From contig CM120644.1 of the NCBI GenBank assembly GCA_051362555.1, forward strand, positions 9,618,954-9,682,953: a stretch of DNA of 64,000 nucleotides, read 5' to 3'. The notes under the pieces were generated by a model. That model had not been told where the DNA came from and did not search any database. It saw nothing but the letters and a program-made list of their open reading frames with translations. The stretch's first letter is position 1, and the number at the start of each line of letters is the position of its first letter. The translations under genes and the position numbers were made by a program. The DNA comes from Lingula anatina. Taxonomy: Eukaryota; Animalia; Brachiopoda. This document shows, piece after piece, positions 15,740-62,196 of this stretch.

Positions 15740-15781
15740 CCTGAAAGCCGTTGGCTCCTTGGTAATGTCACCCTTCTTCCA

Positions 15782-29545: not shown

Positions 29546-30889
29546 CCATTTATGTTGCTAAATTTTCACAAGTACAATGAAGCTCTGTTTTAGCTGAAAG
29601 GTAAATAAGATAAAGTCCATATGACTGAAAATCGCATTTATTAATGACGAAAAATAATGAGATACAAAGTTACAAAAATTGGAGGATAATCATACATCTC
29701 CATTCTATATAACTGTCATTATATGAAATTAAGTGGGTTAATGAGTGCAGCCAAGATAAATTAAGAAAATATGTGAAACAGCAACAGCTATTAAAGCAAA
29801 AAGTTGGCATAAGTGAAAATTTTTGACAGGCTGGCAAAATGTCCACATAAAAATTATACAACAAAGTGAATAATCTTCCAATGTATCTGCAAACCTGCAT
29901 TAGGGAACAATACGGGTAAATATCACCGTAGTTAAAACACTAATATACATGTAGCTGATAAATATAGCTGCTAAAAACATTGATCATAACAACTACATGT
30001 GTGTGCCTAGATACACAGCGGTTGAGACATTTCAGTTCCACGGACATTTGTTATCACCCTGCCTTGGTCAACTACTTTAAAGTTAAATGTGCAAAGACAA
30101 ACCCCAAAATAAGACTATTTCCTATAAAAAATATCGTTGATGTATACATAAATATAAGTGAAACCACCACAAAAACAAATCATTTTCTACATAAATACAA
30201 TTATTTGTAATTATCTAAAATGTTGCTTAGAGAAAATACAAAAACACAATATCCCCTTCCAATAACGCAATTTTTCGCTGCAATCTAAATTGTAGGGAAA
30301 TTTAGCGATTAAAACGTGATAAAACTATCATTACGTTAATAATTTTATAAAAAGTAAGCGAAAGAGGTAAAAAAATAATTCCAGTTTCTAGCAGTCGGGC
30401 CCACCTTAAAAAGAACTCGGTGCCTAGTCAGTAAGCAATCCATTTTCAGATACATTCCCGCTCAGCTGTCTCCCTGGTCGGCTTATCAATCTAAAAGCAC
30501 TTAAATTATCAAAATGTCTTAAGTATTCTACATTCTGTACCAAAAATGAAAACAAAAATTAAAGAACACACAATCGTTGTCATAAAGAATGCTGCAATTG
30601 CTGTTTCGAAAATATTGTTTCATTCAAGATAAGCATTTTGTTGGTCCAAACTAATTTTTGTTTTAGTGATAAAAAATTTTTGTAACATTTTTGAGTACTA
30701 TTTCTACTATAGAAGTTTTAAAACTATATATCACAACCCACCTACACAGCTGTGACGTCACCCACGGTGTAGGTGCAGTTGAATATAAAACTTCACAAAG
30801 ATAAATGACATAAAATTCGCTACGTAAAAACCACATTTGTGATCACTGAATGTATGTTCACCATTTTACATGGGTAATATCTTATCCTG

Positions 30890-31390: not shown

Positions 31391-31556
31391 TTATGCAGGA
31401 AAATATTCCTTCAGTGACCCTCTAACCGTCCAGTCATCAGCAGACGACCGGGTGTCTCTCACAGTTTTGTAAACCATCAAGAACAGCTCGTCAAAAGGTA
31501 GCTTGGCGGTGAAATACGTCATGGGATTACCTACAGTGGCTTGTATAGCGGGCGGC
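31391..31556 (-). CDS. Last exon, KEN RNase C-terminus
   Basis: PPAIQATVGNPMTYFTAKLPFDELFLMVYKTV...W..RGSLKEYFPA*; acceptor TTTCCAG. Confidence 0.85.
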
Positions 31557-34500
31557 CTGGAAATAGATTCATTAAATGTATAAGATCGTCACTTTCCTTT
31601 AAAATACATATGTACTGAGATCCGGCATAACAACTGGAAATTTCCTCTCAAGTAAAAGAGAAAAAAGCACACTACATACAGTTCTCATGTAGATGTTTGA
31701 ACAGTTTCATCAGTTTCGTCAGTTTGAACAGTTTCATCAATTTGATACCTTATAGGAAGAAAATTCCTTTTGTTACAGTGCAGTTCAGATTATCAGAGAT
31801 TTACATTTTAAAAACTGGACATTTTAATAGAACTTAACCTTTTAAGATGTGTTTGTGAAAAAGTCTTTTTGATTAATATTTTCTGGATTAGCTATTATTA
31901 TGCTGCAAGTCATATAGTTTTCTGTCTCTCCAAGAACTCTGATGTGTTACTATAAACTATATTAGTTGGATTAATCGTGTTTTACATCCTTCTTCCCAAA
32001 CTTAACATAGGGTTATCCCACTAAGATGTCCGTATCGCTGAGCTAAAACCAACTTATTCAGAAATTTCCCGAAAATGGATAAGTATATTTACTGCTACAC
32101 ACTGAAAATAATGTTAATATTAGGAAAATTAAGAATATATCATTCTTACTTATCTTTGAGATGGACGTCCACATTTCGTATGAATCGAAGAAGTCTGCAT
32201 ATGCTAGAGCTGTAGCTAATTGGTTTTGTAAATTTGTCATAAAGAGCTTGATTGAGCAAGTCCTTCTGTAAAACATTGATTTATAAAACTTGGTATATTT
32301 ATCTCTGTTAGTACAGTACAAAAATGGTGCGACAGATTTTCCATTGGCCCTTGTATTGTGATGGTAAAAGAATCAATCGTTTTTGAATTGAGGAAACGTC
32401 ATGCATCATGAAAAATAACTATTTATTTCCTTTAAATCATTATTAATGACTAACTATTTTTTGTTTCACAGCTTAGATATGCACCTAACGCTGCATAATA
32501 AACGGTTGACGTACAGTGCCGCCTGAAATCCCCCTTACTTACTCTGCGGGTCGCCGCGGGTTGTTCAGACGGTCAGGCTCGGTATCTATGGAAATAACAT
32601 TGTCATCCATGCGCTGTTTCTGTTAACAATAGTACCATGCCCTGCCCCGTCGGGTAATTATCGTGACAAACTTTCTGCTAAAAAAAGAGCCTAACCCTAG
32701 CTCGCTGAGATAAAGATCGAAGCTTAGCGTGATCGCATCTACAGTGGTCGGAATAATTTTGTTTCCGTTGTACACCGGTGTAACCACGTTCGAAATGTTT
32801 TAATCCCTATCTTGTGAATAGAAGGGGGCGGACAAACAATGGAGGGCCGTATAAATCCCTTCAAAATTCGAACGCACAAACACAATAGCTTAGGTGGAAT
32901 AACACAATACTTAATACGTGTGAACCCCATGACGCCGGTTTCTGTGGCCCAGCGCGAGCGTGACAATCCGCTGTAACTAGGTGTAATTAACAGCAGGATA
33001 TATCAGCCAGAAGGTCCCTATTGTTTGTTGCGGCGATAGGATTATAGCTTGAAGAGGCTAAACCCATGCTACCGTACTTGGATTAAGAATGTGTACATTT
33101 ACCCCGTGGACCATTTGAAGATTACACTGCGATTAATGAGGTGGAAAATACAATAGAGAGAGTGTATAATGATAGGGTCGCTAAACGATTGTTGACGGCA
33201 TATAGTAACTAGCCTAATCCCCTGGTCGCCTGGGTAGCCACGCCCCCTTAGAGTACTTATGTAAACAAACGGTCTCCCGTAGCGAACTATCCTTTTGTTC
33301 AACAGCTTCGCGCGTGCAGCTGATTATGTATGTAGTGACACTATAGCTAACTGCATATAAATTTGTGCTAGCTGTTATTTGATTCATTCTGCTGTGTCGG
33401 ATGTTGTGGATCAGCCCACTGGTTCGTCGACTTATGTTTTTCTGAAGTTTGGTGGTGCAGATTTTGAGTGCTTAGTTATTTACCCTCCTTCTAACAAGAG
33501 AAAGGGGAAGGGAGATAAAAAGAGAGAGTGTCAAATGAAACGGGTAATGAGTAATACATTACATTAAATAAAGGGACTCGCGGTGGAAGAAACGATAGAC
33601 TGTTTTGCATCAAGGTATGCCATTATAATCCGACATGGCCCATAACATGATCCATAACATGACTCATTGTTGTATGCCTTATATTTGTGCCGACTTATAT
33701 TTTACTCTCGTTCATTTCGTGAAACTATTTCCTTGAATAAAGTTTTGCCTGTATAAATTAACTTTGTGACATGAAGTAATTAATAAAACGCGCCTGTTGA
33801 AAAGGGGGCTTTTCGTAACTAATAAAGGTTCACTATTCAGAAAAATATCGTCGCCGTTCGTCGCCGCTACCTTCAGGAAAGCGTACCCTCCGCGTGGATC
33901 ACCGGCATTTTTGATAATCTGACAAATTAGCACAATTTACGTTTTAGCTAATAATTCTGAATTTACTAATATTTTGGACTAAATTCGATGTCAGATTGAT
34001 AGCAATGACGGAGAGCCGCCAGAGTAACTGACGGACTCTCTACTGATTGTTTCATCTATGCGGATGATACTTCCCTCTTTATGCCCTCGCGTCGGGGAGA
34101 TGTTGATTCACATGCTATATTACAAGGTGACCTACGTACCATTGAAAATTGGTCCAATAAATGGAAACTCAATTTTAAACCGGCAAAGTGCCGCGAAATT
34201 ATATTCGGCAAAGAAAATGATAATAGTGCATACCCTGAATTGTATATAAACAATACCATGATACCTAGGACAAAGAGCCACAAACACCTGGGACTAGTAC
34301 ATGATTCAAAACTAAATTTTAATGATCATACTGATCATGTTTGCGAAAAGGTTCAACGGGCCGTAAATGCACTAAAACCTCTATACTGCAAAGTTAGGTC
34401 CAAACATTTAAATGTTATATATAATGCCTTTATCCAATCACAATTTGATTACTGTGACATATTCTATCATAACTCACTCCAGAAGAAATTATCGAAACTA

Positions 34501-37500
34501 TCGTCTCTTCAATACCAAGCCGGCAAAATAGTACTGGGAGCCTTACCTAGCTCTTGTACCTCCAAAATATTTGAACAACTAAATTGGATTTCTCTATTTG
34601 ATAGAAGAAAAATGCATGCTCAAAAAATTATGTTTTCAGTCATGGCGAATTTGGTCCCCTCCTATGTTTCTGATATATTCCGCCCATTCAGAAACCCTTT
34701 TCCAATCATAACCCGAGAAAATAACAAAAGAGACTTTAAACTTCCTCCTAAATACCCCCGTACCTCAGTTAACTATTTTCTGATGTCTTCATGGGATCAA
34801 CTCTCCTCCTCCACTAAATCTTTACCTTCAATCTCATCTTTCAAGAACTCGATAAAAAAACACCTCACTGCTGGGTCGCTTTCAACAACAACACTAAACT
34901 TGAACAGAAACCATGAAAAAATTCTTAACAGAGCGAGGGTCGGTTGTTTATTTAGAGCAGAATTGTTTAGGCATAACTGGACTACTATTGATACACCACA
35001 CTGCACCTGTGGTGCCCTTGAAACCCCTCTTCACTTTTTCTTCAGATGCCCTCTACTCAATTCAAAGTACCCTCCCCTTTACCAAAAAATAAATGAAACT
35101 CTACATGCAAGCAAGACCTCTTTCAAAACACAAAAAGAAAAGCTGTCGTTATTTCTCTACGGTCATAAATCCTTATCACCCACCCAAAATGAAATTATCT
35201 TCGACACTGTTGCAAATTTTCTTCTCGTAAACTTTGTTATCACTTAATAGGTATTATCTCTTTTCCTCTTCTTTCTTTCTGTACTTAACTTGTGCTCCTG
35301 ATATATATATGAAGTTTTACATTTACTCTGTTGTATATATGTATATACTTATTCATTTGTTTTATTTATTTATTTACTTATTTAATTTAATTTTGTGGAG
35401 AGCATATAATGCTTCCAGCGCCTTGCCTCCACTTCATTCTTTTGAATAAACGTTGTTTAAAAAAAAAAAAGTAACTGTTTAATTTTCTAAACTAATCAAA
35501 CTAGAACGCGTGGCGATAAAATGTGTCGCTAGATCTTGTAAACACTCAGTGAAATGCACCTAGTGACTATATTCAATGTGCCGTCACTTAATTGCTTTCT
35601 CGATTTCATTAATTGACGATAGTAATTGCAGATAACAAGGAAGAGGAAATGCTGAAGACAAAACAACGTCGGGTCTTTGTGTGGCTTTCTCCCTAAACAC
35701 TTTTTATGTTGCTGTCAAAGAAAAAGGAGTCTAGATAGCGATTATTTAAACCACTGCTGCTGCTTTTGCAGGTAGACTTCCTCGTTTATCATTTAAATGC
35801 TCCCCTCCCCCAGCAGACCCAACTTGATGCATGTACGTCTTGGTAGCTATAGTACAGATCTTGGTTCAAGTAATGAAATGTTTAAGCACAAAACGATAAT
35901 TTGAGGCTATTTTTTCATTCAAGACAAAATAAAGTATCTATGGTGTGTGACAATAGGGACTTTACAAAGCTTAATTTGTCCTTAAATATATATTCCAGTA
36001 GCATAGGCGAGCGATGTAATAGTAACCTCAACTTGAGGTATCCTCGATGAAAGCGGAGTACAAAAATTAACTTTTTTAAATATCGATTACAACATGCTGT
36101 ACAATGATGTTGAGACTAAAGGGTTTAATGGACTTCTTTGCCTTAAAAGCAATTCATTTCAATATTAAAAGAAACAGTTTTTTCGGGGAGCGCGGGTAGA
36201 CAGTTTACGTCAGGTGATTCGTTAAAATCGAGGAGTGTTTCACTATCAAATGTGTAAATCATATATGTCATAAAACACCATATAGTAGAAAGTTTTTTGT
36301 TACGATCTGCAACATTTGTTCATTTATATAGCAGGGCGAAGTTAAAGCCAGAGGTAAATAGAACCTAATACCGTAATCCTCCTCGTCCATTTATTTAAAT
36401 CGTATCAAAACGTTTGATACACAATGTTCATTAAATTCATAATTTTGGCGATTTATTAAAACCATATTGGTACATAAAAGTTTAAGATTAGCATAAGTTA
36501 AGCAACAACCAGTATGAAGAACAACACCCTTTTTAAATGAGGCAAGACACCCTCTTCACACTGATTATAACCTTGAGAAAGACATAATGCAACTTAAGGC
36601 AAAGGAGTTATGCAAAGTTCTTTCAACTCGTGTGTGAATACAACACTTTCTTTGTCACTTTTACAAGACAATGGAGGCGAGCAAGTAGAGTAATTACAAT
36701 ATACAATAAAAAGGACATTAGTATAGAAAGCTTACTTCGGGTCAGCCCTTTGCTTGTTCGAATGAAAGAGATAGATATCGCGCCGCGACTCCCTTTATTA
36801 AACCTTCGTGTGATTGTGTAAAAGTGTGAAAGACAGACAACGGTCTTTAGTCGCTGTTGATATTGTTCGCGATTAATATTGAAGTATAACTCCTTCGCCT
36901 GCATGTAAACGTGTTACTTTTCCTCATGTTCACTATATTTCTTTTAGGTGGTTAAGACAATGGGATGAGATCGATAAAAGTAAAGGTTAATCTAAACAAT
37001 ATTAGATGCGATTTTTGTGAAATGACTTATTAAGTGATGTGCATGTACCTAGCATGTTTAAATTCTTGAATTTCTAATTTGTTAAATCTTTCATACACGG
37101 CCTCATATATGTATTACTCTCAGGCCTTCAATATTATTGTGTTACACGGGACTCCTGGAAACCTGAAGCACAGGTCTACGGAGTCTTGTTATCCTTCATG
37201 CAGTTTTATGGCTGGGATGAACACTGCGAAGTAGAAACAGGCTTTAGTTAGCTTTACTTGATGCACGACAGTTTAAACAAAACCAGTCTGCAAGGCTTGC
37301 TTTGATTTGGCGTTATAACCTTACACTGGGTTTAAAAGAACAAATATAAATATGTTCGATGGATTAAATGCCGGCTTCGTTATATTTTAACTAAATGCGT
37401 TCATTTGCACAGTTACACAGATAATATTTTTAAGTTGTCTGTCGTTCAGCACGCATTATAGGCGAGTAGCTAAATAGTGACGGTGATCAATCTAAGCTCA

Positions 37501-40500
37501 ATCTTGGCAAGTATCGTTTACAAAATAGATCATGTTGAATAAACTTAATTACGCTTTAATAAATAATCAACACACGGTTCGGTTATTGTCACTTGAAAGC
37601 TTTCGATCAAAGACGTTCAATGAAATCACAAATCATTTGACGATTAAAAAATGGACATGTTCAAGGGGCAGTTTTTGTTTCAGCTAAAGGGACTTCAGGT
37701 ACAGGTAGAGGGTTCAGTTACGTGTTTCATCGGATGATAGCATCACGCTCTAGGTCTAAGCGAGTTGAATAGAAGCTTTTTATCCAAACATCCTATTCCT
37801 AACTACTGAGCCTAACTACTTGCACTGTGCAATTACTATTAAAGGATCAGATGCATACTTGATTGTTTTTCCTCTGGTGTCGCACGTATGCATCCTTTCT
37901 TGAGTGATCTAAAACAAGTCGCTAGTGTACCATGTTTCTCACTGTAGCAAAATATGTTCGACATAGTGTTTCTGAACGGCAGCCGGAGACACAGTAATTG
38001 TATAGGCACGCTTTAAGCTTGTTCGAGAGATAATAACAGTCGGGTTTAACAATAGATAGCGAGCTATAGTAAGACCCCCTCCTCTTTAACTGATGATTTA
38101 CACTTTTAATTGACCGTACTTTCGTATATTGTATGATCATACAGCCAGACTTCCCCCTGTTGCACGTTGTAGTTGGATTGTCATTGCGCCTATGTCAATG
38201 CACCTCATTTAATTTCAATATTATAATATAAGCAAAATATAAGTAATATGTTATTTCCTTATTCCTCTTTCATTATCATCCATGTTCTATAAATACTTGA
38301 ACGCTTGAATGCAGATATTTCAAATTAAAACGTAAGTACATAAATGAATTATACATTTATAAATTAATGCAATAGGAATATTTTGAGACAGATTGATGCT
38401 GACGCTCATGCATTTTAACCAAACAAACAATAATTAGTTCAATTTTTGACTGCGGAAATTTCATATAGGATGAAATAACTGATAACAAATTTAACTAGCA
38501 GTTTGTTAGCAACACTAAAAACCAGCTGCGCGTGCCAAACTAGTGAACAAAAGGACAGTTCGCTTCGCGTGGCACGCCTTAGCATGGGTTTAGCCTCTTC
38601 AAGCTATAATCCTATCGCCGCAACAAACAATAGGGACCTTCTGGCTGATGTATCCTGCTGTTGATTACACCTAGTTACAGCGGATTGTCACGCTCGCGCT
38701 GGGCCACAGAAACCGGCGTCATGGGGTTCACTCGTATTAAGTATTGTGTTATTCCACCTAAGCTATTGTGTTTGTGCGTTCGAATTTTGAAGGGATTTAT
38801 ACGGCCCTCCATTGTTTGTCCGCCCCCTTCTATTCACAAGATAGGGATTAAAACATTTCGAACGATGTTACACCGGTGTACAACGGAAACAAAATTATTC
38901 CGACCACTGTAAGGCGTGCCACGCGAGGCGAACTGTCCTTTTGTTCACTAGTTTGGCACGCGCAGCTGGTTTTTAGTGTTGCTAACAAACTGCTAGTTAA
39001 ATTTGTTATCAGTTATTTCATCCTATATGAAATTTCCGCAGTCAAAAATTGAACTAATTATTGTTTGTTTGGTTGAAATGCATGAGCGTCAGCATCAATC
39101 TGTCTCAAAAAATTCCTATTGCATTAATTTATAAATGTATAATTTATTTATGTACTTACGTTTTAATTTGAAATATCTGCATTCAAGCGTTCAAGTATTT
39201 ATAAAACATGAATGATAATGAAAGAGGAATAAGGAAATAACATATTACTTATATTATGCTTATATTATAATATTGAAATTAAATGAGGTGCATTGACATA
39301 GGCGCAATGACAATCCAACTACAACGTGCAACAGGGGGAAGTCTGACTGTATGATCATACAATATACGAAAGTACGGTCAATTAAAAGTGTAAATCATCA
39401 GTTAAATAGGAGGAGGTCTTACTATGGTCGCTATCTATTGTTAAACCCGACTGTTATTGTCTCTCGAACAAGCTTAAAGCATGCCTATACAATTACTGTG
39501 TCTCCGGCTGCCGTTCAGAAACACCATGTCGAACGTATTTTGCTACAGTGAGAAACATGGTACACTAGCGACTTGTTTTAGATCACTCAAGAAAGGATGC
39601 ATACGTGCGACACCAGAGGAAAAACAATCAAGTATGCGTCTGATCCATTAATAGTAATTGCACAGTGCATGTTACTAGACCTTTGTCCTAACTCAGTGGT
39701 TAGGAATAGGATGTTTGGATAAAAAGCTTCTATTCAACTCGCTTAGACCTAGGGCGTGATGCTATCATCCGATGAAACACGTAACTGCACCCTCTACCTG
39801 AACCTGAAGTCCCTTTATCTGAAACAAAAACTGCCCCTTGAACATGTCCATTTTTTAATCGTCAAATGATTTGTGATTTCATTGAACGTCTTTGATCGAA
39901 AGCTTTCAAGTGACAATAACCGAACCATGTGTTGATTATTTATTAAAGCGTAATTAAGTTTATTCAACATGATCTATTTTGTAAACGATACTTGCCAAGA
40001 TTGAGCTTGGATTGATCACCGTCACTATTTAGCTACTCGCCTATAATGCGTGCTGAACGACAGACAACTTAAAAATATTATCTGTGTAACTGTGCAAATG
40101 CAAATGTTAAAATATAACAAAGCCGGCATCTAATCCATCGAACATATTTATATCTGTTCTTTTTAAACCAGTGTAAGGGTAACGCCAAATCAAAGCAAGC
40201 CTTGCAGACTGGTTTTGTTTAAACTGTCGTGCATAAAGTAAAGCTAAGTAAAGCCTGTTTCTACTTCGCAGTGTTCATCCCAGCCATAAAACTGCATGAA
40301 GGATAACAAGACTCCGTAGACCTGTGCTTCAGGTTTCCAGGAGTCCCGTGTAACACAATAATATCGAAGGCCTGAGAGTAATACATATATGAGGCCGTGT
40401 ATGAAAGATTTAACAAATTAGAAATTCAAGAATTTAAACATGCTAGGTACATGCACATCACTTAATAAGTCATTTCACAAAAATCGCATCTAATTGTTTA

Positions 40501-43500: not shown

Positions 43501-46500
43501 AACATTTTGTAGGCCATATCTTTTATATAATTAAATCTATATTTGCATATAGGATCTCTCCCATCTACACCCGTAACATTTCTGTCCTTTTGTATTCGTT
43601 CATCAACAGTAAACAATCTTCCCATTAACTGAACGCAAAAATTGCCTGGGGAACTGGCCCGTTGTGGAATAGCAAAAATTACTTACTAACTTCACTGTTT
43701 GGCACGTGTCATCTCACATTAATTAACAATCAGTTCAGGTTAACTTTATTCATGCCGGGTTAACACAGTGATTAAGCTCTGACTATTACATAATCACTAC
43801 TGTGTGACATGCGTCGTCTTAAATTAATGTTAAAATTGCGATGACGCTTTTCGATCCAAAATATTCAACTTTAACTAATTCTCAATCAACTGACAAGTGT
43901 CAACAGGATTGTTTGTCTATCTGGACTTCCTAAATGGCCAGTAAGTATTTTGTATAATATGATATGTTTATGTCACTGATTCCTATGCCTTCGTGTCACC
44001 TGCCAAGTGAACGGTATAAATCGATACTCAAATTTTCCAAATCTTCACAATTCCAATATGCCTCTTTGCGATTATGTACGTCTGCGTATCATCGGTCTCC
44101 GAGAACAAGGGGTGCAAATTAAAAACATAACCGCACAAATGGAAAATGAAGACCATAAAGTGTCGCGACAAGCCATTTACAATGTGCTAAAGAAATACGA
44201 CGAAGGGTTTGGTATTGCCGATAAGACACGCAAACTTAAGAAACTTAAGTGAGGCAATTAAGAAGGAGCAGAGCGTGTTCGTTGAACCGACTAATTTGGG
44301 TGTCCGAGAAGGATTACTTGCCGATTCCCCTACCCTGTAATTATCATGCGGTCTCTATTGTTCGACCATTTGGGAGACCATGCGGCCTTTTGGTAAGGGG
44401 AATTTCTGGCGCCACTGTACGTTACATTGAAATTCCCATTTATATAATTATTTCATTGAAATAAAATGTAAGCTGTGGTTTCGCTGTGGTGCGTTTCTGG
44501 AGGAATCGTAAGAGGATTGGGACACAACATCTATGATTATACGCTCAGAAGACAGGACTTTCTGACACCTTGTTGTTTCATGAAAAGCAGAGTGAATTCC
44601 AGGTATTTAAATCATGAATTTGAACGACTTTGTATAGTTCGCGTGTATGAGAGATCACACCTTGTTGAAATTGAAAACGATGGTAACGCACAACAACCAG
44701 TTTTCTTTACCCATCAAAATTTGCGACGAAGAGCAACTTTTATATTTCTCTCATGTGAGTGCCGTAAATGATTCCTGGGATGACCAAAGACATGGTTACA
44801 CTATTCTTAGGGCTCTCTTTTCATAATTTATAGCTGAAAACAAACTATGTCTGTGTCCAAGATTAAAGAGATGTTTTATAATTAAAAAGTTTAAAACACA
44901 CAGTAATGTTTGGAAACACAAAATTGTTTGTTATAATAAGAAAAATCCATCCCCTTTCACATGACTGCAACCCCATTGCTATCCAACACAGAAATATTTA
45001 GACAGATTTTCAAAGATGATAACCTATTATTGTTACCCAGCATCATAAACGTGCAAATGTACAGTCAGACTGTTGTACAATGCTGTGGGGATTCCCTTAA
45101 CGAGAATACATCAAATTTGATGATAGCATTTGATCGTAATACTCAGTACTGTTTGAAAGAATCTGGGGGAAACTCAGGAATGTTACAGTCCTGAGCACAT
45201 AGGATAGGGGACATGTGACATTCTTGGTCAGTTTTTGGCAGGCAATGATATTGGGTCGCCCAATCGATTTTCTTTCTCCCCTCTACCTCCCTCCACCCCC
45301 CAGACGAGCTGATATCGTCTTAATATTACATGCACACCAGCAACTACCTGATGATCCATATTAAGGCCGGTGATAGGGTTAAATACGCTTAAAATCATGT
45401 TTTTGAGTTTTTTTTTGTGTTTATATCAAAAAAGTATCTAACGTTGGATGTAATAATTTTTATGAATTTGCATCGCAAAATGTGTCTTTTGATGAGTTTT
45501 TCAACCGGCACGCGCCCCAGTCAGGCTGACAACTAAGCCACGCCTCTGTTACTAAGGGCCGTTGTCATGAGGGGGTCGGAGCACAGTTAATGAGTTATAA
45601 GCCGGTTACGTGTGCGGTAATAGGTCATAAGTCTTACATCAGCTTAGCAGCGAAGACGTCTAGCTAGTACACTATGGGGAAGAGAAAAGTTCGTGTTAAA
45701 AGTCCATTTCCAGAGGAAAGAAAGAAAATTTTGAAAGAGAGTAGGGCCTATGCATGGCGGTTGGGGAAAACCGGCCCTATTTGTTCAGTCGGATAACTGA
45801 TTTCTGTATACCTAATAAATGGGTGAAAGAGTTAATCGAATCGCCTAAATTAATTGACAAATAAAAGAAAAATCGATAAATAAATTAAAATAACCGCTAA
45901 AAAGGATACTTTTAGCCTAGCTCTTAATTTTTGCGATATATATCGGCGAGCGTATCTGCGACACGTTACGAAACCGGAAATGATTGTTGGTCGCCGTTTG
46001 CAAAAGGTAAATCTTATGTTGACAAAATAAAATTTTACTCTCCAAGATATGATATCATGGAGCTTGAGAGACACGCGAAAAATTGTGATATGAATGGCAA
46101 AACGAGAGAAATCCAAGCAAGGGTTGACAGCATGATTAAAACAATAAAAATAAAAACGCATGTTAGCGGCTTTGCATTTTGCAATGTTTGGAGATAAACA
46201 ATTTCAAAATCACTGATCAAGCGGGAAGAAAGAGTTCAAAATGTATCCAAAAATGAAAATCACAAAAAGACCCCGAAAATAGTCAAGACTAGCAGGTAAA
46301 AAGCAAATAGGGTCTAAGTGTCATGTGTGTAAAAATAAAATATTTATTCAAAAGCCTTCTCTCGGCCACTTTTACCGCTGAATCTTGTGCAGCTGAGCGT
46401 CTCCCCTTTATCTTAGCTGGCATTTTGAGAGAGACCGCTCTGAAGTAATCATTGGATTTTTCCGTTGATCTGACGATTACCAAGTGCCGTGCAAAATAAT

Positions 46501-49500
46501 CCTGCAGCGTTACCCGTCAAAAAACTCTTATTAACACAAGTGACGGCCACTTGCTCTCGACAGACAGTTTTATCTGATCACTTTGCCGATAACAGAAAAG
46601 GAATCTCTCAGGTAAAATTACTCGTTTGCCGAGAAAAAGCCATTGAAACGTTCAAATGCAACTTCACACTCTTAATTGCGGTTAAATGTAATCGCCTTTG
46701 TTAGCGCTTCCTTCTACATATCCTTGACACCCTACTGGGCATCACTAGGCTAGGGCCCTCTCCAGAGCTGTCAATCAAAATGGCGGCACGCTTACACGCC
46801 TAACGAGTGGTCGGAAAATGTAACAAAAGCACGATTTTCTGCCCTTTCAAAGCACCCAAACAAAATATTTTTAGATGACAATGAGCAATGTTTCCACCTG
46901 ACCGTATAACCGATAACAGGTAAACCTGCCAGCTAAGCATTTGACTAATAAGCTCTGTTAACCAACCTGTGAACGTTTTTGGCTGTTTTAACAGCTTTCT
47001 ATATTGACGAGATAAGTGAATCGCTGCCAAGTATATCTCACTATCTGAGCAACCGATCGTTACAAAAGTTGCACCTATTGTTGTTGGGAATGTGGACTAC
47101 AGCATGATATCAGGGGTTTAAGAGGAAATTGTTTGTTTGAAAGTTATCGCCTTTTGAAGTGAATAACCCATTGAAATATGGGCTGATTTAACGTAAAATA
47201 TGATAAAATCATAAGTAAATAGTTTAAGACAATTCCCTGGTACCCCGCTGTAGTGCTTTCACCCAGCTTTATGAGGCCTTTTGAATCACTTGAATAGCTG
47301 TCCTGGTTATAGAGAAAATCCCAATACCGAAAACGGCATTTTTCCCCTCAAATTGGTGCCAGAGCGTCATCCGTTGGACACTGTACTTGATCCCCGTCTT
47401 TAATTGGCCTTTTGGGAAGTTCGTTTTAATTTTTTATAAAAACTTTTAAGCCCAGGGCTTTGTTTCTATGACTTTGGTCCTTTTACTATCAGTCACCTTA
47501 AAGTACATTTACAGTCTGATAATTAACAAAAATTACGTACCCAATGTGCTACTGTGTTAAACACGGATACCGTCAACCCATCCAGTGTCAACGTTACGGA
47601 ATGTGGCTGTCGTTTCCAACTGAAATAAGTTCATTGGATTGACATGAATCTTATACAAAACAAAGATCTTAATAACTAGAATTGTTGTCAAGCTAAACAC
47701 AACATAATATTTAACTGCTCGTATAAAGTAATGTTGGTATAATATTATCAATATTATTTTTCAACTTTTCTAACTGTTCCAAAAATGACTAACTGCCTAG
47801 GACTATTACAAAATAAAGCGATCTTTTAAGTTACAGACGAAGTATAATACAACGTTTCATTGAAAGTCAAGAATAAATAGTAATGCAAGCTGGCATGAAG
47901 GACGTAACATTTATCTTACAGGTACACAGCAAAATACTGCTGATGATGCATTTTCACATTTTGTTGCAGCTATTTCTTTAATTTTATTTCTGAAAATGAC
48001 TAGTATCCAAATGTTTTGGGTGGTACCTTTCTTTCACTTCCTTCTCGTCCCCCAGCACACAAAGAAAACGATATCTCGTATTCACATTCCAAAAGAACGG
48101 GTGCCTGTTTTTTAAAAAAAGAGGTATATCCACATTAGGTTAACATCATACGCCAATTATTCATACGTTTATCGGTGCGTTAACACATCAATGATTGATT
48201 TACTTAACTACTTAACAGCATACATTTTGCCCTTTTATGTTTTTGAACAACATAAGACACATCTAAAATATATTCTTTCACCGCAAAGTGTGTGCCTTTA
48301 ATTTTGCAGTGAGCAAGTAGTTGTAATTGCTTAATTTAATTATCGAAAACGTATTTAAAAGGCATGAGGTATCAGCATGATGTTGGTGGTGGGACTGGTG
48401 TTTGCACTGGACACTTTACATGACTATTTACAGTTATAAAGCATTGTCGATAAATTATTTTTCGCCTTCTGAAAATCACTGAATTTGTTTTATAGTTTAT
48501 AAACACATAAATGTCTTTTACGCATTATTTGTGCCCCACATGAATACAAAAGAAAATATGTGTTCTGCTTTTCATAGATTTCATTGTGTTGCAAATTGCA
48601 ATTTTAAAACGGGAGTTAATTAAAAACACAAAGATAACTTACGCCAGTGCCTCATCAATGGTCGGCCTCAGCTCAGGGTCTGGCTGCAGCATCCAGTCCA
48701 CTAAATGTCTCCCGACGATGTCGTCCAAGGCTGAAAGGTCATGTTTTCCGTCTTGAACGTTCTTGTTACACAGAAACATGTCGGCCTCGCCATTGGGCAT
48801 AAATGGGTGTATGCCACCTGTTAGTGTGTAGTAGACTAACATCCCGGCCACCTGCAAGGGAAACAGAACAATGAACGGTTTTATGAATTAAGTTTTGACA
48901 CATGTACAGGGTACCTTGTTTTTTTATAATGCAAGGTTCCTCAATAACTACAAGGAGCTCATTTCCATGTGCGTAATTGTTAAAATCCAATAATTCATGC
49001 TTCAGATTGTTAACAAATTTACTTAAATAATACGTATGTCCATGATATCATCATGAGGATAATTTTAAAATACTAATGTAATATCCTGTAATTTTTTTTT
49101 ACCTGGATATCCGCATTTTTCTTGTATTTCACTTTTCTTTTGGCGCTATCCAATATTTCTTTTGCTACCCAGTGGTATGTTCCTAAATAAACAAACATAT
49201 CTCAACCATGGTTGGACAGTTGCAAATAAAATTCATGTTCAAGCTTGGTATTTTAAAGATCTAAATGTAACTGTAAATTGGCAATGAGTAATATAGTGGA
49301 GGGCTTTCATTCATTCTTCTTCTACAACTAATAGATCCTGCATGACTCGAAATTTAAAATCACTGCACTTTACCCAAAACATCTTCCAAGATAGGCGGAT
49401 AAACTGAGATAGAGAAACACAAAGTGACAAACATATTTTACCTTTAGCAGTAGTGTAGAAAGCACTCTGGTCATCCGGGAGGATCACACTTATACCAAAG

Positions 49501-52500
49501 TCAGACAATTTTGCCCGGCAGTTGACATCTATCAGAACGTTATGGGGCTGGAATTGACGTAGTACGTAATGAAACTTTAATTCCCCAGTCTGTTGTTTAT
49601 TTTTCAGTTCTTTTATCTAATCACTACTAGCAAGAAACCTTTGACATTAAAAATCATTTGCAACTAAGAAAACAAGGCAACAAAGCTGTCAAATGTACAG
49701 ACAAAAAAAGCAGAAAATAACGATGCAAAAATAGGCTACTGTCAATTCTGATACAAAAATACATTATGCTTAACATTATGCAAATTCAACATCAAATTTT
49801 AATTATGCTCAACAGGTTATACCAATGTAAGTAACAATCATAAGGCTTCAGGCCCATGGGAGTTCAAGCTCACACTTTGAAAATGCCAGAATGAGAAAAA
49901 TGAACATTTCCCACAAAATTGCATAAATTCAATAATAATTGATAACCCAATTGAGCTGGCTTTCTAATTTGAACTGCATGCCAATCCTAAAAATCATACT
50001 TGTAAGTTAAAAATAATAATAAGTAACACAGTTTTATTTTCATAATGTTTGTAGTAGCAGTGCAAAAAAGATTTTTGTCAATTTTGATGTAAAATTAGAT
50101 AATAAATTACAGAATAATCATCACCAATTTTTGATTATTGACTATAAATAGCACGGATATGTAGAAAATTTGATAACCATTCGGCTTCATGTCCATGGGA
50201 GCTCTGAGTCCCACAATGTATATGCAAACACGATAAAAAGAATATTTCACTAAAATGAATAACTTTCAGAAAAAAAGGCAATTAGACTGCTTTTCCAACT
50301 CAGGCCGCATTTTAGTCCTGTGTTCTTTTTCAAAAGTTTGACAATCATAAGCAACATGGCTTTCTCATAATGGTCTTCATGGCAGCAGCAACCTAAATTG
50401 TGGTTTCTTCGATTTTGATGCAATATCAAATAATGCTTAAAGGGATAATAACTCTTCGTATGAGAACTATATTTCACAATAAAAACATTGTGAATAACTC
50501 ATAGAAATATAATATATTCTGTTTTACCGCAAAAACGGCAGTTATAGTTATTATTCTGATATCTGAGCTTGTCTTTAGACCACGTGACCTCCATTGATGG
50601 CTATACTCTGTTATAATCGCTTAAGAGATTTTAACCAAAAAAACCAAACTTTTTAGAAAAAAAACAGCTGCAGGGACTAACTTTGAATGTAAAAATGGAT
50701 TCATTAACTATTGATAAGTATGGGAAAATTGTTGTTTACTCCAGGAAAATTAATTTAACAGCATAATGACCATCAATTTTTAATAATAAAATATTCGTAT
50801 CATGGATTTTCAGAAAATGCGACTAGCATGGGTCTTCAAGACTGTAGAGGTTCTAAGTCACACCTTGAAAATGTCAATATGTGAAAAATTAAATTTTCAC
50901 AAAAAAATGTTTAACTGCCAGAAAAATTTACCAAACAAACTGCATTGCCTACTGAAACTGTATTTAATCTCATGTTTCTTTCCTGTAAGTTTGAGAACAG
51001 TAAGTGACATTGTTTTCCTTAAATGGTCATCAGGGGAGCAGTGCCCAAAATAGGGGGTTCTTCAAATTTTGATGCAACATTACATGATGTTAAATAGCAT
51101 AATGACCATAAATTTTTTATAATAAAATATTAGTATCATGGATATTCAGAAAATGTGACTAGCAAAGGTCTTCAGGACCATGAAACTTCCAAGTAACACC
51201 TTGAAAATGCCAATATGTGAAAAATTAAATTTTCACAAAAAAAATGTTTAACTGCCAGAAAAATTTACCAAACAGACTGCATTGCCAACTGAAGCTGTAT
51301 TATAGTCTCATGTTTCTTTCCTGTAAGTTTGAGAACAGTAAGTGTCATGTGTTTTTTTAAATGGTCATTATGGGAGCAGTGCCCAAAAAAGGGGTTTCTT
51401 CAACATTTTGATGCAATGTTACATAATGCTTAACAGTATAATGACCATCAATTTTTAATAATAAAATATTAGTATCATGGATATTTAGAAAATGTGACTA
51501 GCAAAGGTCTTCAGGCCCTTGGAACTTAAAAGTGACACCTTGAAAATGCCAAAATGTAAACAAGACAGCACTGTTCTGAAATGTTTTTTTTTCCCATTTT
51601 TAACTATTTTTACATAAACAACATCAACAGTTTTCTGCTATTTTTATATGATCAACTAAGAAAATTGATGAGATGGGGAAAATATCAATAGAACAGTGTT
51701 AAATGTCCAATTTCCTCCATTCTGAGATTCTGAACATAGTGACTGATTGAATCTGACAAACTGTAATGATATAAGTTTATTTCCATTTTTGAATCTCTAT
51801 TACACAATACACGATAACAAGCTTACCATCATTTTACATAATCAACTAACAATGTTGTAAAGATGCAGGAAATGTCAAACAAACACTTTTACATATCTTA
51901 TTAGTTAAAAATGAGACTGTGAACATGCCTAAGAATTGAATCTGAGGAAATGTGAAAAAACAGCGTATCTTCTAAAAAAAAATGGCCCGATTATGCTGAT
52001 TTTCGAACTCACCCTGCGTTTTAGTAAAATTGACCACTCCGGTGAGTTTAATGACAACTGACCTATCTGTTTTTCTTATATTGTGTTTACAGTGTTGCAT
52101 ATATACTGAAAAGTGGAAAAAAAACAGCATAACTACTAAAATAGTGGATAGATCATACCGATTTTCGAACTTGACCAGCTCTGAAAATATAAAGCCAAAA
52201 AGTAAAACTGTCTTCCACTTATCGTGTTAACGCTGAAAGTGCACGGCGACGGCGATGACAGACGCAGGTGATGGCAATATGTACAGACACATCTGATGCA
52301 TTTTTATGTACAGACACATCTGTGTCTGTACATAAAAATGCCTCAATTAGTATTTCAAGAACAATTTGTGTGAAATCCCGAAAATAGCTGTCAACTGAAA
52401 AGGTATTTACCTTGATATCCATGTGGATAACGTTATGTCCGGCGTGTAAGGTCCTAAGGCTCTCCAAGATCTGCCCTACGAGATCTCGAGAGATATTGGT

Positions 52501-55392
52501 CTGGTTTTGTTTGTATTCATCTGAAGATATGAATTCATTGAGAGTAAACTCTCCAAGTTCAAGAACCAAGTACAGAAACTCGTCGTCCTGAACAATATCA
52601 TAATACCGGATGACATTTGGGGAATCCAATTTAGTTAACAGTTCTTTCTCGTTCTTGAAGTTCTGTGACATGGACCGTGGGTATCATTTTACGGCGACCT
52701 CTCTGCCATCATGCCGAATACCCAGAAACACCTCAGTTTTGTTTCCACTGAAAGAAAAGTATCATAATTTAATTTGAGGAATCTGAAACTATAACCAGGA
52801 TTGATTACTCTTGCCCCGGTCAAAAGAATAAATGGAAAATGTGTGGCAGATATCTAGCCTTGGTCATTTATACTAGTATGCCAGTAGTGAAAATTACTAT
52901 GATAGAAAACATACTTCGATTTACAACATCAGCAATGAGAAACACTAAAATACACAACAAACAAAATCTAGCTATGTATTTCATTTCAATTTCATTCTTT
53001 TCCGCATGTTCTAGTCAGTGGGAAAGCGTCTATAAACAAAACTAAAATATATAAAACCAGCCAGAACACGATTTGGAGCATAAACATTTTTTAAAATGAT
53101 AACATAATCAAATTGAAAAATTAAATAAAATAGATTATATACTAAACTCCTCACTATACTTACGATCCAATTATAAACCTGTCGATCTTTGTGCTGAAAC
53201 ATACATTGTTCACTTCCTTCAAGTGTCCGCCGCTGACCTGCAAAAGTTCTTCAAAGAAAGGCCTCCATCTGGCACTAACAGGTGTCCAGTTTGAGGAATA
53301 CTTTAGGGCAATCTGTTCCTTCAGATAGATTGAACTACTTGACGGTACTATAGAATCACAGAGCAGTACGTCGTCGGCTATATCGATGTATTCTCCATCG
53401 CTTCGAATTTGTAGGATCTGGCGTGAAACAGGAATGTCTGCGTCTGCCTCTATTTGATTTTTCAAAAACGCCACGTTATTATTTGGTGAAACTTGATAGC
53501 CTCTAAAAGTACCGGTAGGGAGCAGCACTGATACTCTCCAGGGCTGACTGGTAAGAATGATGTCTATTTCATCTTCCATTTTGGAGGTCAGGTATTCGGC
53601 TAACATCTTATCGTCACTAAGAACGTTACCATTGAAACTAAGGTGTTGTTCAAAAAGATGGATATCTGTATCCACCGCCAGAGTCCGCTTTAGTCCGCCG
53701 ACGGCATTGCTTGCCAACAAAGAGTATTTATAGATTTGAGTGCCAAAAGCTACAGAAACCTTTAATGACCAGTCAACAGTCACAACTGACCCTTCTTGGA
53801 GACTACAATCCTTCAACTTTTTGTCACACTCGAGCTGTGTCCCTTCGTAAATGAAAATAACTGTCTTCTGAAAGTGCTTCGCCAGTGCGTCCACTGAATC
53901 CGTTGGAGATACTTTAACCGATATTTGGGTGTTCCGTCCTATAATCTTAAACACGACTTGGAATAAAAAAGACATCTTTATTTTACGTAGACAACATAGA
54001 AGAGTCTTCTCGTCAGATTCGACCAATTCTTGCAGTGAAGGTTTTCCTTCCCACTGGGCTTCTATTGGAAGCATATCCTTTCGTGCTGCTTGCGATTTAA
54101 AATCAATCATATTCAAAAAATCTTCAACTGTAAGAAGGGGATTCATAAAGTGTTCTTCAATGTTGTCATCGGGATATTGGACGAAAACACTATGTGCAGC
54201 AAAGGTGACCGCAAATGTTTGGTATGTTTCTAAGTAAATGCCATAATCTGTGAAAGTTTTGTCTTCGTCAAGACTGTCTGATTCTCCCGGCACAAGACCA
54301 CGATATACATTCACGTAATAAAGGGGTAGATTTACAAGTTCAGTGACTTTGGTCTTTATGACTCGAATTTTATCCGTGCTCTTTACGGACATGCGCTGAC
54401 TATGTCTGTCTGGCAGACGAATAGATATAAAATGAACAGGTTCTGAACTATCCGGTTCAGTTTGTGCAACCATGGGTGTGCCTTCTGGATCTGATTTGCA
54501 TATGCACCTCTAAAAGGAAAATAAGTATGCAGTATTACATGAATGATATGAATTGACTGATGAATACAAATTAGTCCAAATTAAAGAAAAAGATTAGAAA
54601 TATTTACTGCAAATTTCTCTCTTTAGTACTTTCTTTATCGCCATTGCTTCAGTAAATCATTAATTCGTTACCTATTAAATTGGTTTACCGTTTGGTGATC
54701 AACATGACTTAACTGATGCATATTTGGCATCATTAAATAATCTTTACATTTCCATCTTAACAAACATAGTTCATAGAAGCATTTGTTAGTTGAATATATC
54801 TGGAATTTTATTGGATGCCACGACTGCAATAAAAGACGATTATCGATAGAAGAAAGCAGTGAACGAAAAAACGTACCGAGAAACAGTTTTCGCAACAATC
54901 AGAAAACCAATCTCTACATCCCTCTCGACATTGCCCGCAGTCGTCGTAGTCCTTGCAACAACAACACAGACATAAATCACTATTTTCCTGACAGCTGAGA
55001 TACACACAGACTCCCACACAGCACAGGATCAGCAGCCCAGCAACGCTGGTTGACACGGCAGTGGCTATGATCCATCCTTTGACTCCAGGCGCGGGCGTGG
55101 CACCGGTGTTTGTGGGCGTGGTCGCAATAAAAGTAACCGTGGTTTGGGTGGCGTTACCGATGTTCTTGTTGTTGGCCGTGCCTGATTGGTTTATGCTGGA
55201 TATAGGCGAGGTCTCCGTGAAAGTAGGCGTGGTCTCGGTGGTGTTGCCGCTTTTATGTCTCTGGGAGACCGATCCATTTGTGATAGAGGGCGTTGTTGTT
55301 GTCCCAATTTTCATGTTATTGGTATCAGAGGATATGACGTTTGGTGTTATAAAGACCAAAATGGCGGTTACACTGCACAAAATCCCGTACAT
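31391..55392 (-). CDS. Multi-exon IRE1/RNase L-like gene: signal peptide - S/T stalk - TM - Cys-rich - tandem ubiquitin-like domains - kinase - KEN ribonuclease (~1010 codons; one in-frame TGA at 52684-52686)
   Basis: Ten GT-AG exons in compatible phase: 55392-54877, 54509-53164, 52747-52411, 49547-49442, 49182-49103, 48851-48643, 48104-48027, 47619-47541, 32265-32150, 31556-31391 (3033 nt in total). Motifs: IGSGNKTEVFLG, VAVK, HMDIKPHN, DFG, GTYHWVAKE, HPFFW, LLRFIRNVDVH, YFTAKLP. Confidence 0.85.
32150..32265 (-). CDS. KEN RNase catalytic exon
   Basis: KDLLNQALYDKFTKPISYSSSICRLLRFIRNVDVHLKD, compare IRE1 DLLRAMRNKKHH and RNase L DLLKFIRNLGEH. Acceptor TTTTACAG, donor GTAAG. Confidence 0.88.
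34031..35469 (+). mobile_element. 5'-truncated CR1/L2-group LINE (RT C-terminus, ORF 34081-35247)
   Basis: YADD at ~34057; LQGDL..I..WS.KW.L.F...KC; C-terminal CTCG..ET..HFFF.CP; AATAAA and poly(A). TSD AGTAACTG (34023-34030, 35470-35477). Empty site present in the other arm (~42112). Confidence 0.92.
41484..41572 (-). mobile_element. Extremely 5'-truncated RTE-type LINE 3' end
   Basis: Encodes AQHVARDRAKWKEVTVALCPTRDEEQ*, followed by a (GAT)n tail. 14-bp TSD CGTCGCTCGCCTAT (41470-41483, 41573-41586). Absent from the left arm (~36003). Confidence 0.85.
44058..44252 (+). pseudogene. Truncated N-terminal HTH of a Tc1/IS630-type transposase
   Basis: MPLCDYVRLRIIGLREQG..IKNITAQM......VSRQAIYNVLKKYDEG; lies ~170 bp inside the right TIR. 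Confidence 0.65.
45365..47497. mobile_element. Non-autonomous TTAA-flanked DNA transposon (Kolobok-like)
   Basis: TTAA at 45361-45364 and 47498-47501; short imperfect TIRs GGCCGGTGATAG / GGTGACTGATAG; GC-richer interior without an intact ORF. Confidence 0.5.
47541..48104 (-). CDS. Two exons starting the KEN domain (48104-48027, 47619-47541)
   Basis: HPFFWNVNTRYRFLCVLGDEKEVKE|SWKRQPHSVTLTLDGLTVSVFNTVAHW. The second exon is conserved in the paralog at 63961-64000. Confidence 0.82.
48643..49547 (-). CDS. Kinase C-lobe exons (49547-49442, 49182-49103, 48851-48643)
   Basis: PHNVLID...KLSDFGIS; GTYHWVAKE...ADIQ; VAGMLVYYTLTGGIHPF...WMLQPDPELRPTIDEAL. Confidence 0.92.
49671..52338 (-). mobile_element. 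Non-autonomous Helentron-like (HINE/DINE-type) element in a kinase intron
   Basis: On the minus strand: 5' TTTTT-ATGTACAGACA with palindromic copies (52281-52338) and a CGCCGT tract. 3' subterminal TGTCTGTACAT, a short imperfect hairpin and TTGTT (49671-49703). Internal ~340-bp tandem repeat. Confidence 0.65.
50750..51555. repeat. ~340-bp tandem repeat (about 2.4 copies)
   Basis: ATAATGACCAT...AATAAAATATT.GTATCATGGAT recurs at ~50763, ~51099 and ~51438. Confidence 0.85.
52411..52747 (-). CDS. Kinase N-lobe exon containing an in-frame stop
   Basis: GNKTEVFLGIRHDGREVAVK*YPRSMSQNFKNEKELL...LYLVLELGEFTL...HMDIK. Confidence 0.9.
53164..54509 (-). CDS. Large exon encoding ~5 tandem ubiquitin-like (beta-grasp) domains and the pre-kinase segment
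   Basis: Repeated pattern of two beta strands, V...D.V..LK helix, IP...Q.L.F.G..L.D.K.L.DY. Ends WTPVSARWR..FEEL...F.IGS. Confidence 0.8.
54877..55392 (-). CDS. First coding exon: signal peptide, S/T-rich ectodomain, TM helix, Cys-rich juxtamembrane segment
   Basis: MYGILCSVTAILVFITPNVISS; Thr/Ser-rich stalk with N-x-S/T sites; WIIATAVSTSVAGLLILCCVGVCVYL; CLCCCCKDYDDCGQCREGC. Phase-0 donor GTACGT matches the phase-0 acceptor at 54509. Confidence 0.8.

Positions 55393-62123: not shown

Positions 62124-62196
<73 letters not shown>

What the first reader, a model, noticed from the sequence alone, without database searches (positions are those of the whole stretch)
31391..55392. Membrane-anchored tandem-ubiquitin-like kinase-RNase: an unusual IRE1/RNase L family architecture
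Seen: ten exons splice in phase into signal peptide, S/T-rich stalk, TM helix, Cys-rich (palmitoylation-like) segment, ~5 ubiquitin-like domains, kinase and KEN RNase. Known: IRE1 is activated through a folded ER-luminal domain and RNase L through ankyrin repeats binding 2-5A; tandem UBLs are known from OASL and ISG15. Neither canonical sensor is present here. Instead a cytosolic UBL array with no di-glycine ends sits between the membrane and the effector. Inference: a lineage-specific membrane-tethered RNase in which the UBL array could act as an oligomerisation module, or as bait for ubiquitin-binding proteins or pathogen proteases/DUBs. This would be a candidate invertebrate innate-immune or stress effector. 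I do not know this architecture from characterised proteins, but I could not search databases.
Basis: partly seen in the sequence, partly recalled or inferred. Interest (0 to 1): 0.88.

Follow-up and report, generated by a model that had tools for sequence, protein, structure and literature searches.

The report
Membrane kinase-RNase with ubiquitin-like array
A gene family of lamp shells (Lingula) joins a membrane anchor and a string of ubiquitin-like domains to the kinase-RNase module of IRE1 and RNase L, likely as an innate-immune RNA-cutting receptor, but the copy in this window carries a stop codon that would cut off its kinase and RNase.

Summary
The architecture is real; this copy is broken. 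Ten GT-AG exons splice in phase (1010 codons): signal peptide, S/T-rich stalk, TM helix, Cys-rich tail, four clear and one degenerate ubiquitin-like (UBL) domain, kinase, KEN RNase. Three intact Lingula anatina RefSeq paralogs ('uncharacterized') have the same layout. RNA reads join TM to UBL (14 reads) and UBL to kinase (23 reads), but none is 99% identical to the window and all 33 covering the stop read Arg, so they come from related copies. The kinase-KEN is not a duplicate of animal IRE1 (AU p=3e-6). It shares RNase L's pre-kinase linker motif, keeps catalytic residues (non-RD kinase; R-N-x3-H), and is closest to teleost kinase-KEN proteins. Relatives in fish, corals and hemichordates carry swapped immune domains (ankyrin, PYRIN, CARD, TPR, GT4). 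The UBL-kinase fusion was found only in Lingula. Best reading: a clustering-activated immune RNase with the UBL array as its input; function is untested. Non-RNase L kinase-RNase clades are published (Chu 2023); ten literature searches found no account of this layout.

The parts
54877..55392 (-). Exon 1: signal peptide (about 55392-55327), S/T-rich glycosylated-type stalk, TM helix (about 55074-54997), Cys-rich juxtamembrane tail
   Evidence: Hydropathy, sequons and S/T count; Cys count; same layout in paralogs P0002 and P0003; 14 RNA reads join 54877 to 54509
53164..54509 (-). Exon 2: five tandem UBL units (U1 54437-54195, U2 degenerate 54194-53964, U3 53963-53766, U4 53765-53544, U5 53543-53313), then the pre-kinase linker with W-x3-S-x-R-W (53312-53175)
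   Evidence: Pfam; profile plus shuffles; model and Foldseek; register with linear polyubiquitin; linker shared with RNase L
52411..52747 (-). Exon 3: kinase N-lobe to the HMD catalytic loop (non-RD; 52425-52417)
   Evidence: Pkinase 1.7e-14; 23 RNA reads join exon 2 to exon 3
52684..52686 (-). In-frame TGA at codon 642, directly after the VAVK lysine; the only lesion in the reading frame
   Evidence: Arg in 3 of 3 full-length RefSeq paralogs and in 33 of 33 covering reads
49442..49547 (-). Exon 4: K-P-H-N continuation, DFG (49502-49494), activation segment
   Evidence: loose read ends at 52411 translate to the start of this exon
49103..49182 (-). Exon 5: kinase subdomain VIII (AKE in place of APE)
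48643..48851 (-). Exon 6: kinase C-lobe
48027..48104 (-). Exon 7: kinase end and start of KEN
47541..47619 (-). Exon 8: KEN
32266..47540 (-). Intron 8, 15,275 nt, holding a roughly 10 kb fold-back repeat and a LINE fragment; the same intron of the upstream paralog is about 1.6 kb
32150..32265 (-). Exon 9: KEN catalytic motif Y...R-N-x3-H (32178-32161)
31391..31556 (-). Exon 10: KEN C-terminus and stop
60234..63996 (-). 3' end (exons 8-10) of an upstream tandem paralog, frame open over exons 9 and 10
   Evidence: tblastn; exon 10 identical at 152 of 166 nt
29420..29551 (-). Decayed relic of a last exon of a third copy

Best explanation
This is a stop-codon-interrupted copy of a Lingula gene family whose intact paralogs encode a predicted single-pass membrane protein with tandem ubiquitin-like domains, a kinase and a KEN RNase, and which likely acts as a clustering-activated innate-immune RNase. 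Shown: domain order, splicing of related copies, intact kinase and RNase catalytic motifs, tandem duplication, and an RNase L-type linker just upstream of the kinase. Inferred, by analogy with IRE1 and RNase L: monomers are off; clustering in the membrane lets the kinases pair back to back and builds the composite RNase site; RNA cleavage then shuts down translation or kills the cell. Inferred, least secure: the non-cleavable UBL array sits where RNase L has its ankyrin sensor, directly before the same linker, so it is the likely input. Kinase-proximal U4-U5 would pack on the linker, and the faster-changing U1-U2 would bind a partner or pathogen factor that handles ubiquitin or UBL proteins. 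The window copy is most likely a recent null allele or young pseudogene (about 70%), otherwise a truncated TM-UBL decoy (15%) or a base error (15%).
For: Three full-length intact paralogs, 72-80% identical to the window copy over the UBLs and 88-91% over the kinase. Spliced reads across exons 1-2 and 2-3 in 4 of 4 runs. K, E, D-x-K-x-x-N and DFG are present, and KEN has Y...R-N-x3-H aligned with IRE1; the R and H of this motif are needed for RNase L activity (PMC3710099). BLASTP to mammalian RNase L starts at the W-x3-S-x-R-W linker; 0 of 4 IRE1 rows displayed have it. In RNase L the ANK-kinase linker takes part in ligand binding and interdomain contacts (PMC4718504), and RNase activity needs a back-to-back dimer (PMC4536996). 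Relatives carry ankyrin, PYRIN, CARD, caspase, TPR, UEV, HEPN or GT4-conflict domains (47 proteins scanned; names). Identity rises from U1-U2 (57-75%) to U4-U5 (78-92%) to the linker (89-96%). A second Lingula subfamily keeps the UBL-linker-kinase cassette at 29% identity and groups with this one (SH-aLRT 93). A Nematostella 'RNase L' homolog is induced by poly(I:C) (PMC8476169).
Against: No activity, ligand, localisation or induction was tested. Paralog P0005/P0227 keeps TM-kinase-KEN with only half of U5, so the array is not required in every model. The ubiquitin I44 patch is eroded and LRGG is absent. The U1-U2 divergence may be relaxed constraint; no dN/dS was computed. Deep placement is unresolved: a sister relation to RNase L (AU p=0.52) or to all IRE1 (p=0.31) is not rejected, and the teleost link has only SH-aLRT 90-93. 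The AlphaFold alignment included poly-UBL proteins and is biased toward that fold. No read matched the window copy at 99% or more (0 of 413), so its own expression and its stop codon are unverified.
Confidence: 0.45

Rival explanations
1. A receptor triggered from outside or within the membrane: the stalk, TM helix and Cys-rich tail, or a co-receptor, drive clustering, and the UBL array is a spacer or scaffold.
For: P0005 has TM-kinase-KEN almost without UBLs. TM and Cys tail are 87-96% identical to P0001 and P0003. A paralog model puts an LRR ectodomain in front of the same cassette. Non-RD kinases are typical of pattern-recognition receptors (recalled, no call).
Against: The ectodomain is only about 80 residues, low-complexity and without a Pfam hit; it is 53-57% identical to P0002, with large deletions, and the TM only 37%. 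The LRR model has no TM segment and may be mis-joined.
Confidence: 0.25
2. A fast birth-and-death cluster in which the kinase signals, or many copies are decaying, and RNA cleavage is not the main output.
For: The window holds a nonsense copy, a relic exon and a 15 kb repeat-filled intron. Several relatives give no Pfam KEN hit, and model P0228 ends before KEN. Read depth is low.
Against: The R-N-x3-H motif is kept in all five RefSeq models that reach it (P0001-P0005) and in the window copy; KEN is 82-87% identical between copies. Related copies are spliced and expressed.
Confidence: 0.17
3. A lineage-specific IRE1-like ER-stress RNase (RIDD-type decay) that senses membrane or proteotoxic stress through its TM helix and uses UBLs to engage the proteasome or p97.
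For: Type I topology like IRE1. IRE1 chains are the best PDB matches. A sister relation to all IRE1 is not rejected (p=0.31).
Against: Grouping with animal IRE1 is rejected (p=2.9e-6). There is no luminal domain. The RNase L-type linker and the FIRN-type KEN motif differ from IRE1's RNKKHH. Tandem duplication is unlike a housekeeping sensor (inference).
Confidence: 0.1

Closest known systems
RNase L (2-5A-dependent ribonuclease; PDB 4O1O, 4OAU)
   Same: Kinase-fold + KEN module; W/Y-x3-S-x-R-W linker before the kinase; LL(R/K)FIRN-x3-H motif; an N-terminal module directly before the linker.
   Different: No ankyrin repeats; membrane-anchored; DFG and activation segment retained rather than the pseudokinase DFD; 24% identity. 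2-5A activation is unlikely without ankyrins (inference).
IRE1/ERN1 (PDB 3FBV, 4PL3, 5HGI)
   Same: Signal peptide + single TM + active-type kinase + KEN; best PDB match, E=4e-36.
   Different: No folded luminal domain; about 375-residue UBL array between TM and kinase; HMD instead of HRD; not within animal IRE1.
Teleost ankyrin/PYRIN/CARD kinase-KEN proteins (auto-named 'IRE1-like', 'ppk4-like', 'irlB-like') and coral, hemichordate and mollusc relatives; the non-RNase L kinase-RNase clades of Chu et al. 2023 (PMC10400998)
   Same: Closest sequences, 37-42% over kinase-KEN; shared linker; swappable N-terminal domains.
   Different: None of the non-Lingula proteins among the 212 scanned combined UBL with kinase; the fish proteins showed no TM segment by hydropathy; they are mostly RD kinases.
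Linear polyubiquitin, ISG15, OASL and USP7 tandem UBL arrays
   Same: Head-to-tail beta-grasp units; U3-U5 align in register with polyubiquitin; Foldseek E=2e-20 to linear tetra-ubiquitin, then USP7 UBL1-5, ISG15 and OASL.
   Different: No di-glycine, so not processed or conjugated (inference); I44 patch eroded; internal to a membrane enzyme.

Membership tests
IRE1 | Folded ER-luminal (PQQ-like) sensor domain | tested here: not met
   About 80-residue S/T-rich stalk, no Pfam family on exon 1
IRE1 | Signal peptide and single TM helix | tested here: met
   Hydropathy only, no SignalP
IRE1 | Kinase-KEN falls with animal IRE1 | tested here: not met
   AU p=2.9e-6 for Lingula + 3 animal IRE1; sister to all IRE1 not rejected, p=0.31
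IRE1 | XBP1/HAC1 splicing or RIDD upon ER stress | not testable with these tools
   Needs a bench assay
RNase L | N-terminal ankyrin repeats binding 2-5A | tested here: not met
   No ankyrin family in the paralogs or exon 2
RNase L | Pseudokinase (DFD, lost activation segment) | tested here: not met
   SDFG and GTYHWVAKE present; absent in both RNase L rows
RNase L | Structured sensor-kinase linker | tested here: met
   Motif aligned, and BLASTP begins there; sequence level only
RNase L | Forms a clade with RNase L | tested here: inconclusive
   Not recovered in three quick trees, not rejected by AU, p=0.52; only 2 RNase L rows
KEN/HEPN RNase (PF06479) | Pfam match above cut-off and R-x4-H catalytic motif | tested here: met
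   51-56 bits against a cut-off of 23.3 in two paralogs; R-N-V-D-V-H in the window copy
KEN/HEPN RNase (PF06479) | RNase activity as a dimer | not testable with these tools
   Needs a bench assay
Active Ser/Thr protein kinase | VAIK Lys, alphaC Glu, catalytic Asp, DFG in one open frame | tested here: inconclusive
   Residues present and frame open in the paralogs, but the window copy has TGA right after the Lys
Ubiquitin-like domain (PF00240) | Beta-grasp fold / Pfam match | tested here: met
   U3 and U4 above the cut-off alone; U5 E=0.019; U1, U3, U4, U5 above all shuffles, U2 marginal; model and Foldseek
Conjugatable ubiquitin/ISG15 modifiers | C-terminal LRGG di-glycine | tested here: not met
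   Junctions read DWSLKV and TSQPWRV
Non-RNase L kinase-RNase clades of Chu et al. 2023 | Placement in one of their ten clades | not testable with these tools
   Their figures are not held and the supplement could not be read

The most novel reading that the evidence does not exclude
Brachiopods evolved a class of receptor RNases: one UBL-array/kinase/KEN cassette mounted behind several membrane or ecto modules (mucin-like stalk + TM, a hydrophobic multi-helix N-terminus, an LRR ectodomain). The non-cleavable polyubiquitin-like array acts as an integrated decoy that detects pathogen deubiquitinases or ubiquitin-binding effectors and fires RNA destruction without OAS or 2-5A. It would be one branch of an animal-wide, modular RNase L-like immune arm that also survives in teleosts, which lost RNase L.
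Probability: 0.2. Interest if true: 0.85.

Novelty: new variant of a known kind. Interest (0 to 1): 0.55.

Why it matters
RNase L and its 2-5A trigger are reported to be confined to jawed vertebrates and lost in ray-finned fish (PMC10400998), and Lingula was scored as lacking RNase L (PMC6307210). This family shows an invertebrate fitting the same RNase module, with RNase L's linker, to a different input at a membrane. If it is an active immune RNase, it gives a concrete, testable case of 2-5A-independent RNA-destroying defence in invertebrates. It also points to the uncharacterised teleost and coral relatives as a wider immune arm. The yeast assay used for RNase L can test it directly. The window copy itself matters less, as it is interrupted.

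Tried and rejected
No whole genome is held for this window, so copy number and an intact allele could not be checked. No indexed RNA holder was listed; raw-read runs were laid instead. The first lay was swamped by a transcribed repeat in intron 3 and showed no exon joints. A single-sequence AlphaFold run failed (pLDDT 29). The kinase-KEN homodimer job gave no verdict (score 0.00, alignment not used) and is not counted either way. The ESM Atlas gave only weak UBL leads for U1-U2 (0.87-0.90). Rejected: separate genes for the TM, UBL and kinase exons (spliced reads; single RefSeq proteins). Rejected: duplicate of animal IRE1. Rejected: RNase L orthologue by architecture. Rejected: reading the RNA as proof that the window's TGA is an error, because in the 40 best-supported of 240 differences all 20 amino-acid changes give the residue of P0001 and P0003, so the reads are from another copy. 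The careful tree did not finish; all trees are 'quick'. Rows dropped: 5 short rows; the trees use 50 and 51 hand-picked proteins of about 227. Literature: 10 searches found no paper on this layout; subscription journals are mostly not covered. PMC3710099 lists a KEN-UBI fusion by one gi number, without organism in the passages seen.
Full report
Observation. Ten minus-strand exons with nine GT-AG introns splice in phase to 1010 codons. The order is signal peptide, stalk (39% S/T, four sequons), TM helix, Cys-rich tail (17 Cys in 54 residues), UBL array, kinase and KEN. One thing was missed: codon 642 (52686-52684) is TGA, directly after the VAVK lysine, and it is the only internal stop. It lies 943 nt upstream of the last exon junction, so nonsense-mediated decay is likely (established rule, not tested). 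Everything downstream is still open and keeps its catalytic motifs, so the lesion is young or a base error.

Identity of the gene. A search with exon 2 among longer proteins returned 2 hits from 5196 candidates, both Lingula anatina 'uncharacterized' RefSeq proteins with ubiquitin, Pkinase and Ribonuc_2-5A. A third full-length model is a cluster member. They are 72-80% identical to the window copy over the UBLs, 88-91% over the kinase and 81-85% over KEN, and all have Arg at codon 642. The window is therefore likely from Lingula. It also holds the last three exons of an upstream paralog (63996-60234) and a relic exon near 29.5 kb, so this is a tandem cluster. Intron 8 is 15.3 kb here against about 1.6 kb in the neighbour.

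RNA. Laid on 52370-55700, four runs gave 413 reads, with depth on the exons and almost none in the introns. 14 reads join exon 1 to 2 and 23 join exon 2 to 3; loose ends at 52411 translate to the start of exon 4. All 33 reads over the stop read Arg. But 0 of 413 reads are 99% identical or better, and in the 40 best-supported of 240 differences all 20 amino-acid changes match P0001 and P0003. The reads show that the TM-UBL-kinase transcript exists in the family. They neither show expression of this copy nor correct its stop. The exon 8-9 junction was not tested with reads.

UBL array. Pfam passes U3 and U4 alone. A profile from 137 units of seven non-Lingula poly-UBL proteins scores U1, U3, U4 and U5 at 24, 21, 28 and 33 bits (0 of 500 shuffles reach each) and U2 at 6.8 (1 of 500). 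An AlphaFold model from a 13-row alignment (mean pLDDT 66, pTM 0.44) shows five beta-grasp-like units, U2 with a disordered insert. Foldseek ranks linear tetra-ubiquitin first, then USP7 UBL1-5, ISG15 and OASL; the alignment contained poly-UBL proteins, so this is not independent. U3-U5 align in register with polyubiquitin, with LRGG replaced; I44 is Ser and Gln in U4 and U5, and V70 is Asp in U3. The whole array lies in one 1346-nt exon, which fits capture of a polyubiquitin-like cassette (inference). Identity between copies rises toward the kinase: U1-U2 57-75%, U4-U5 78-92%, linker 89-96%.

Kinase-KEN. The kinase keeps Lys, alphaC Glu, D-x-K-x-x-N and DFG but has HMD for HRD; KEN has Y...R-N-x3-H. 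Of 66 hits at E<=1e-20, the closest outside Lingula are teleost proteins (37-42% over kinase-KEN), ahead of IRE1 (about 30%) and RNase L (24-27%). Three quick trees place Lingula with teleosts at SH-aLRT 90-93, outside fully supported IRE1 and RNase L clades. AU tests reject grouping with animal IRE1 (p=2.9e-6) but not a sister relation to all IRE1 (0.31) or to RNase L (0.52). A W-x3-S-x-R-W motif about 40 residues before the Gly loop is shared with teleost, abalone and RNase L rows and absent from the four IRE1 rows shown. A family profile also reaches further upstream on porcine RNase L than on IRE1 chains, though the IRE1 constructs are truncated.

Spread of the architecture. In a local scan of 212 proteins (the best 150 of the 50%-identity library plus earlier hits), UBL with kinase occurred only in five Lingula models. 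A second Lingula subfamily has the same UBL-linker-kinase cassette at 29% identity. There it lies behind an LRR ectodomain (P0213; no TM in the model, possibly mis-joined, ends in the kinase N-lobe) or a hydrophobic N-terminus (P0228; ends before KEN). P0228 groups with the window's family at SH-aLRT 93. P0005/P0227 is TM-kinase-KEN with only half of U5. Among 47 relatives scanned, N- or C-terminal partners include ankyrin, TPR, PYRIN, CARD, caspase, UEV, HEPN_DZIP3 and GT4-conflict, in teleosts, Xenia and hemichordates; several give no Pfam KEN hit. Only the top 150 of a much longer list were seen, and brachiopods are thinly sampled.

Mechanism. IRE1 and RNase L activate through a back-to-back dimer (PMC4536996, passages), and RNase L's ankyrin-kinase linker takes part in ligand binding and interdomain contacts (PMC4718504, passages). 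The Lingula proteins put a UBL array directly before that linker and tether it to a membrane. I commit to a clustering-activated immune RNase with the array as input (0.45). Rivals are outside-in triggering with the array as spacer (0.25), kinase-centred or decaying duplicates (0.17) and an IRE1-like stress RNase (0.10). All steps beyond domain content are inferred.

What is known. Chu et al. 2023 (PMC10400998; parts 1-3 of 6 and a term search; figures and supplement not seen) sort RNase L homologs into ten clades, most with a kinase, and derive RNase L from a kinase-RNase that gained ankyrins. Their main text has no mention of Lingula, brachiopod or transmembrane; their unseen trees may include these proteins. 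Anantharaman 2013 (PMC3710099, passages) lists KEN fused to kinase, ankyrin, CCCH, UBI or BRCT. Hu 2018 (PMC6307210, passages) scores L. anatina as OAS-positive and RNase L-negative. Lewandowska 2021 (PMC8476169, passages) reports a Nematostella RNase L homolog induced by poly(I:C). PMC8195603 (passages) has no mention of KEN, and PMC5620054 (one passage) has nothing relevant. Ten searches found no description of a TM-UBL-kinase-KEN protein.

Verdict. A real, expressed, apparently undescribed architecture of a known enzyme module, already present as unnamed database models of one species, and seen here in a nonsense-bearing copy. New variant of a known kind; interest 0.55.

Noticed in passing
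window 32740-43073: A roughly 10 kb fold-back repeat inside intron 8 (arms 92-99% complementary, 14 pairs); its centre (38580-38911) is an inverted copy of the outer flank (32740-33071). It may be a real inverted duplication or an assembly artefact.
   Followed up: no
window 34009-35247 (+): A 412-codon LINE-like reverse-transcriptase fragment (RVT_1, 7e-5, below the Pfam cut-off) present in one arm of the fold-back only.
   Followed up: partly
window 13084-19365 (-): Four long ORFs (476-639 aa) that read like gag, protease, RT and integrase of a BEL/Pao-type LTR retrotransposon; the label is from recall and was not scanned.
   Followed up: no
window 49550-52350: Intron 3 holds multi-copy repeats that draw thousands of RNA reads, mostly at 90-95% identity, so this repeat family is abundant in transcripts.
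   Followed up: no
window 56842-57290 and 28217-29132: Tandem arrays with 60-nt and 184-nt periods on either side of the gene.
   Followed up: no
window about 63880-63180 (-): A further RT-like fragment in an intron of the upstream paralog, seen by eye in the sequence.
   Followed up: no
proteins P0089, P0092, P0123, P0100 (teleosts); P0119, P0125 (hemichordates); P0143, P0158 (Xenia): Kinases of the same broad group fused to PYRIN, CARD, caspase, UEV, GT4-conflict, TPR or HEPN domains; a modular animal immune group that merits its own survey.
   Followed up: partly
proteins P0213/P0124 and P0228 (Lingula anatina): LRR-UBL-kinase and hydrophobic-N-terminus-UBL-kinase gene models; both are incomplete, and the LRR join lacks a TM segment.
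   Followed up: partly
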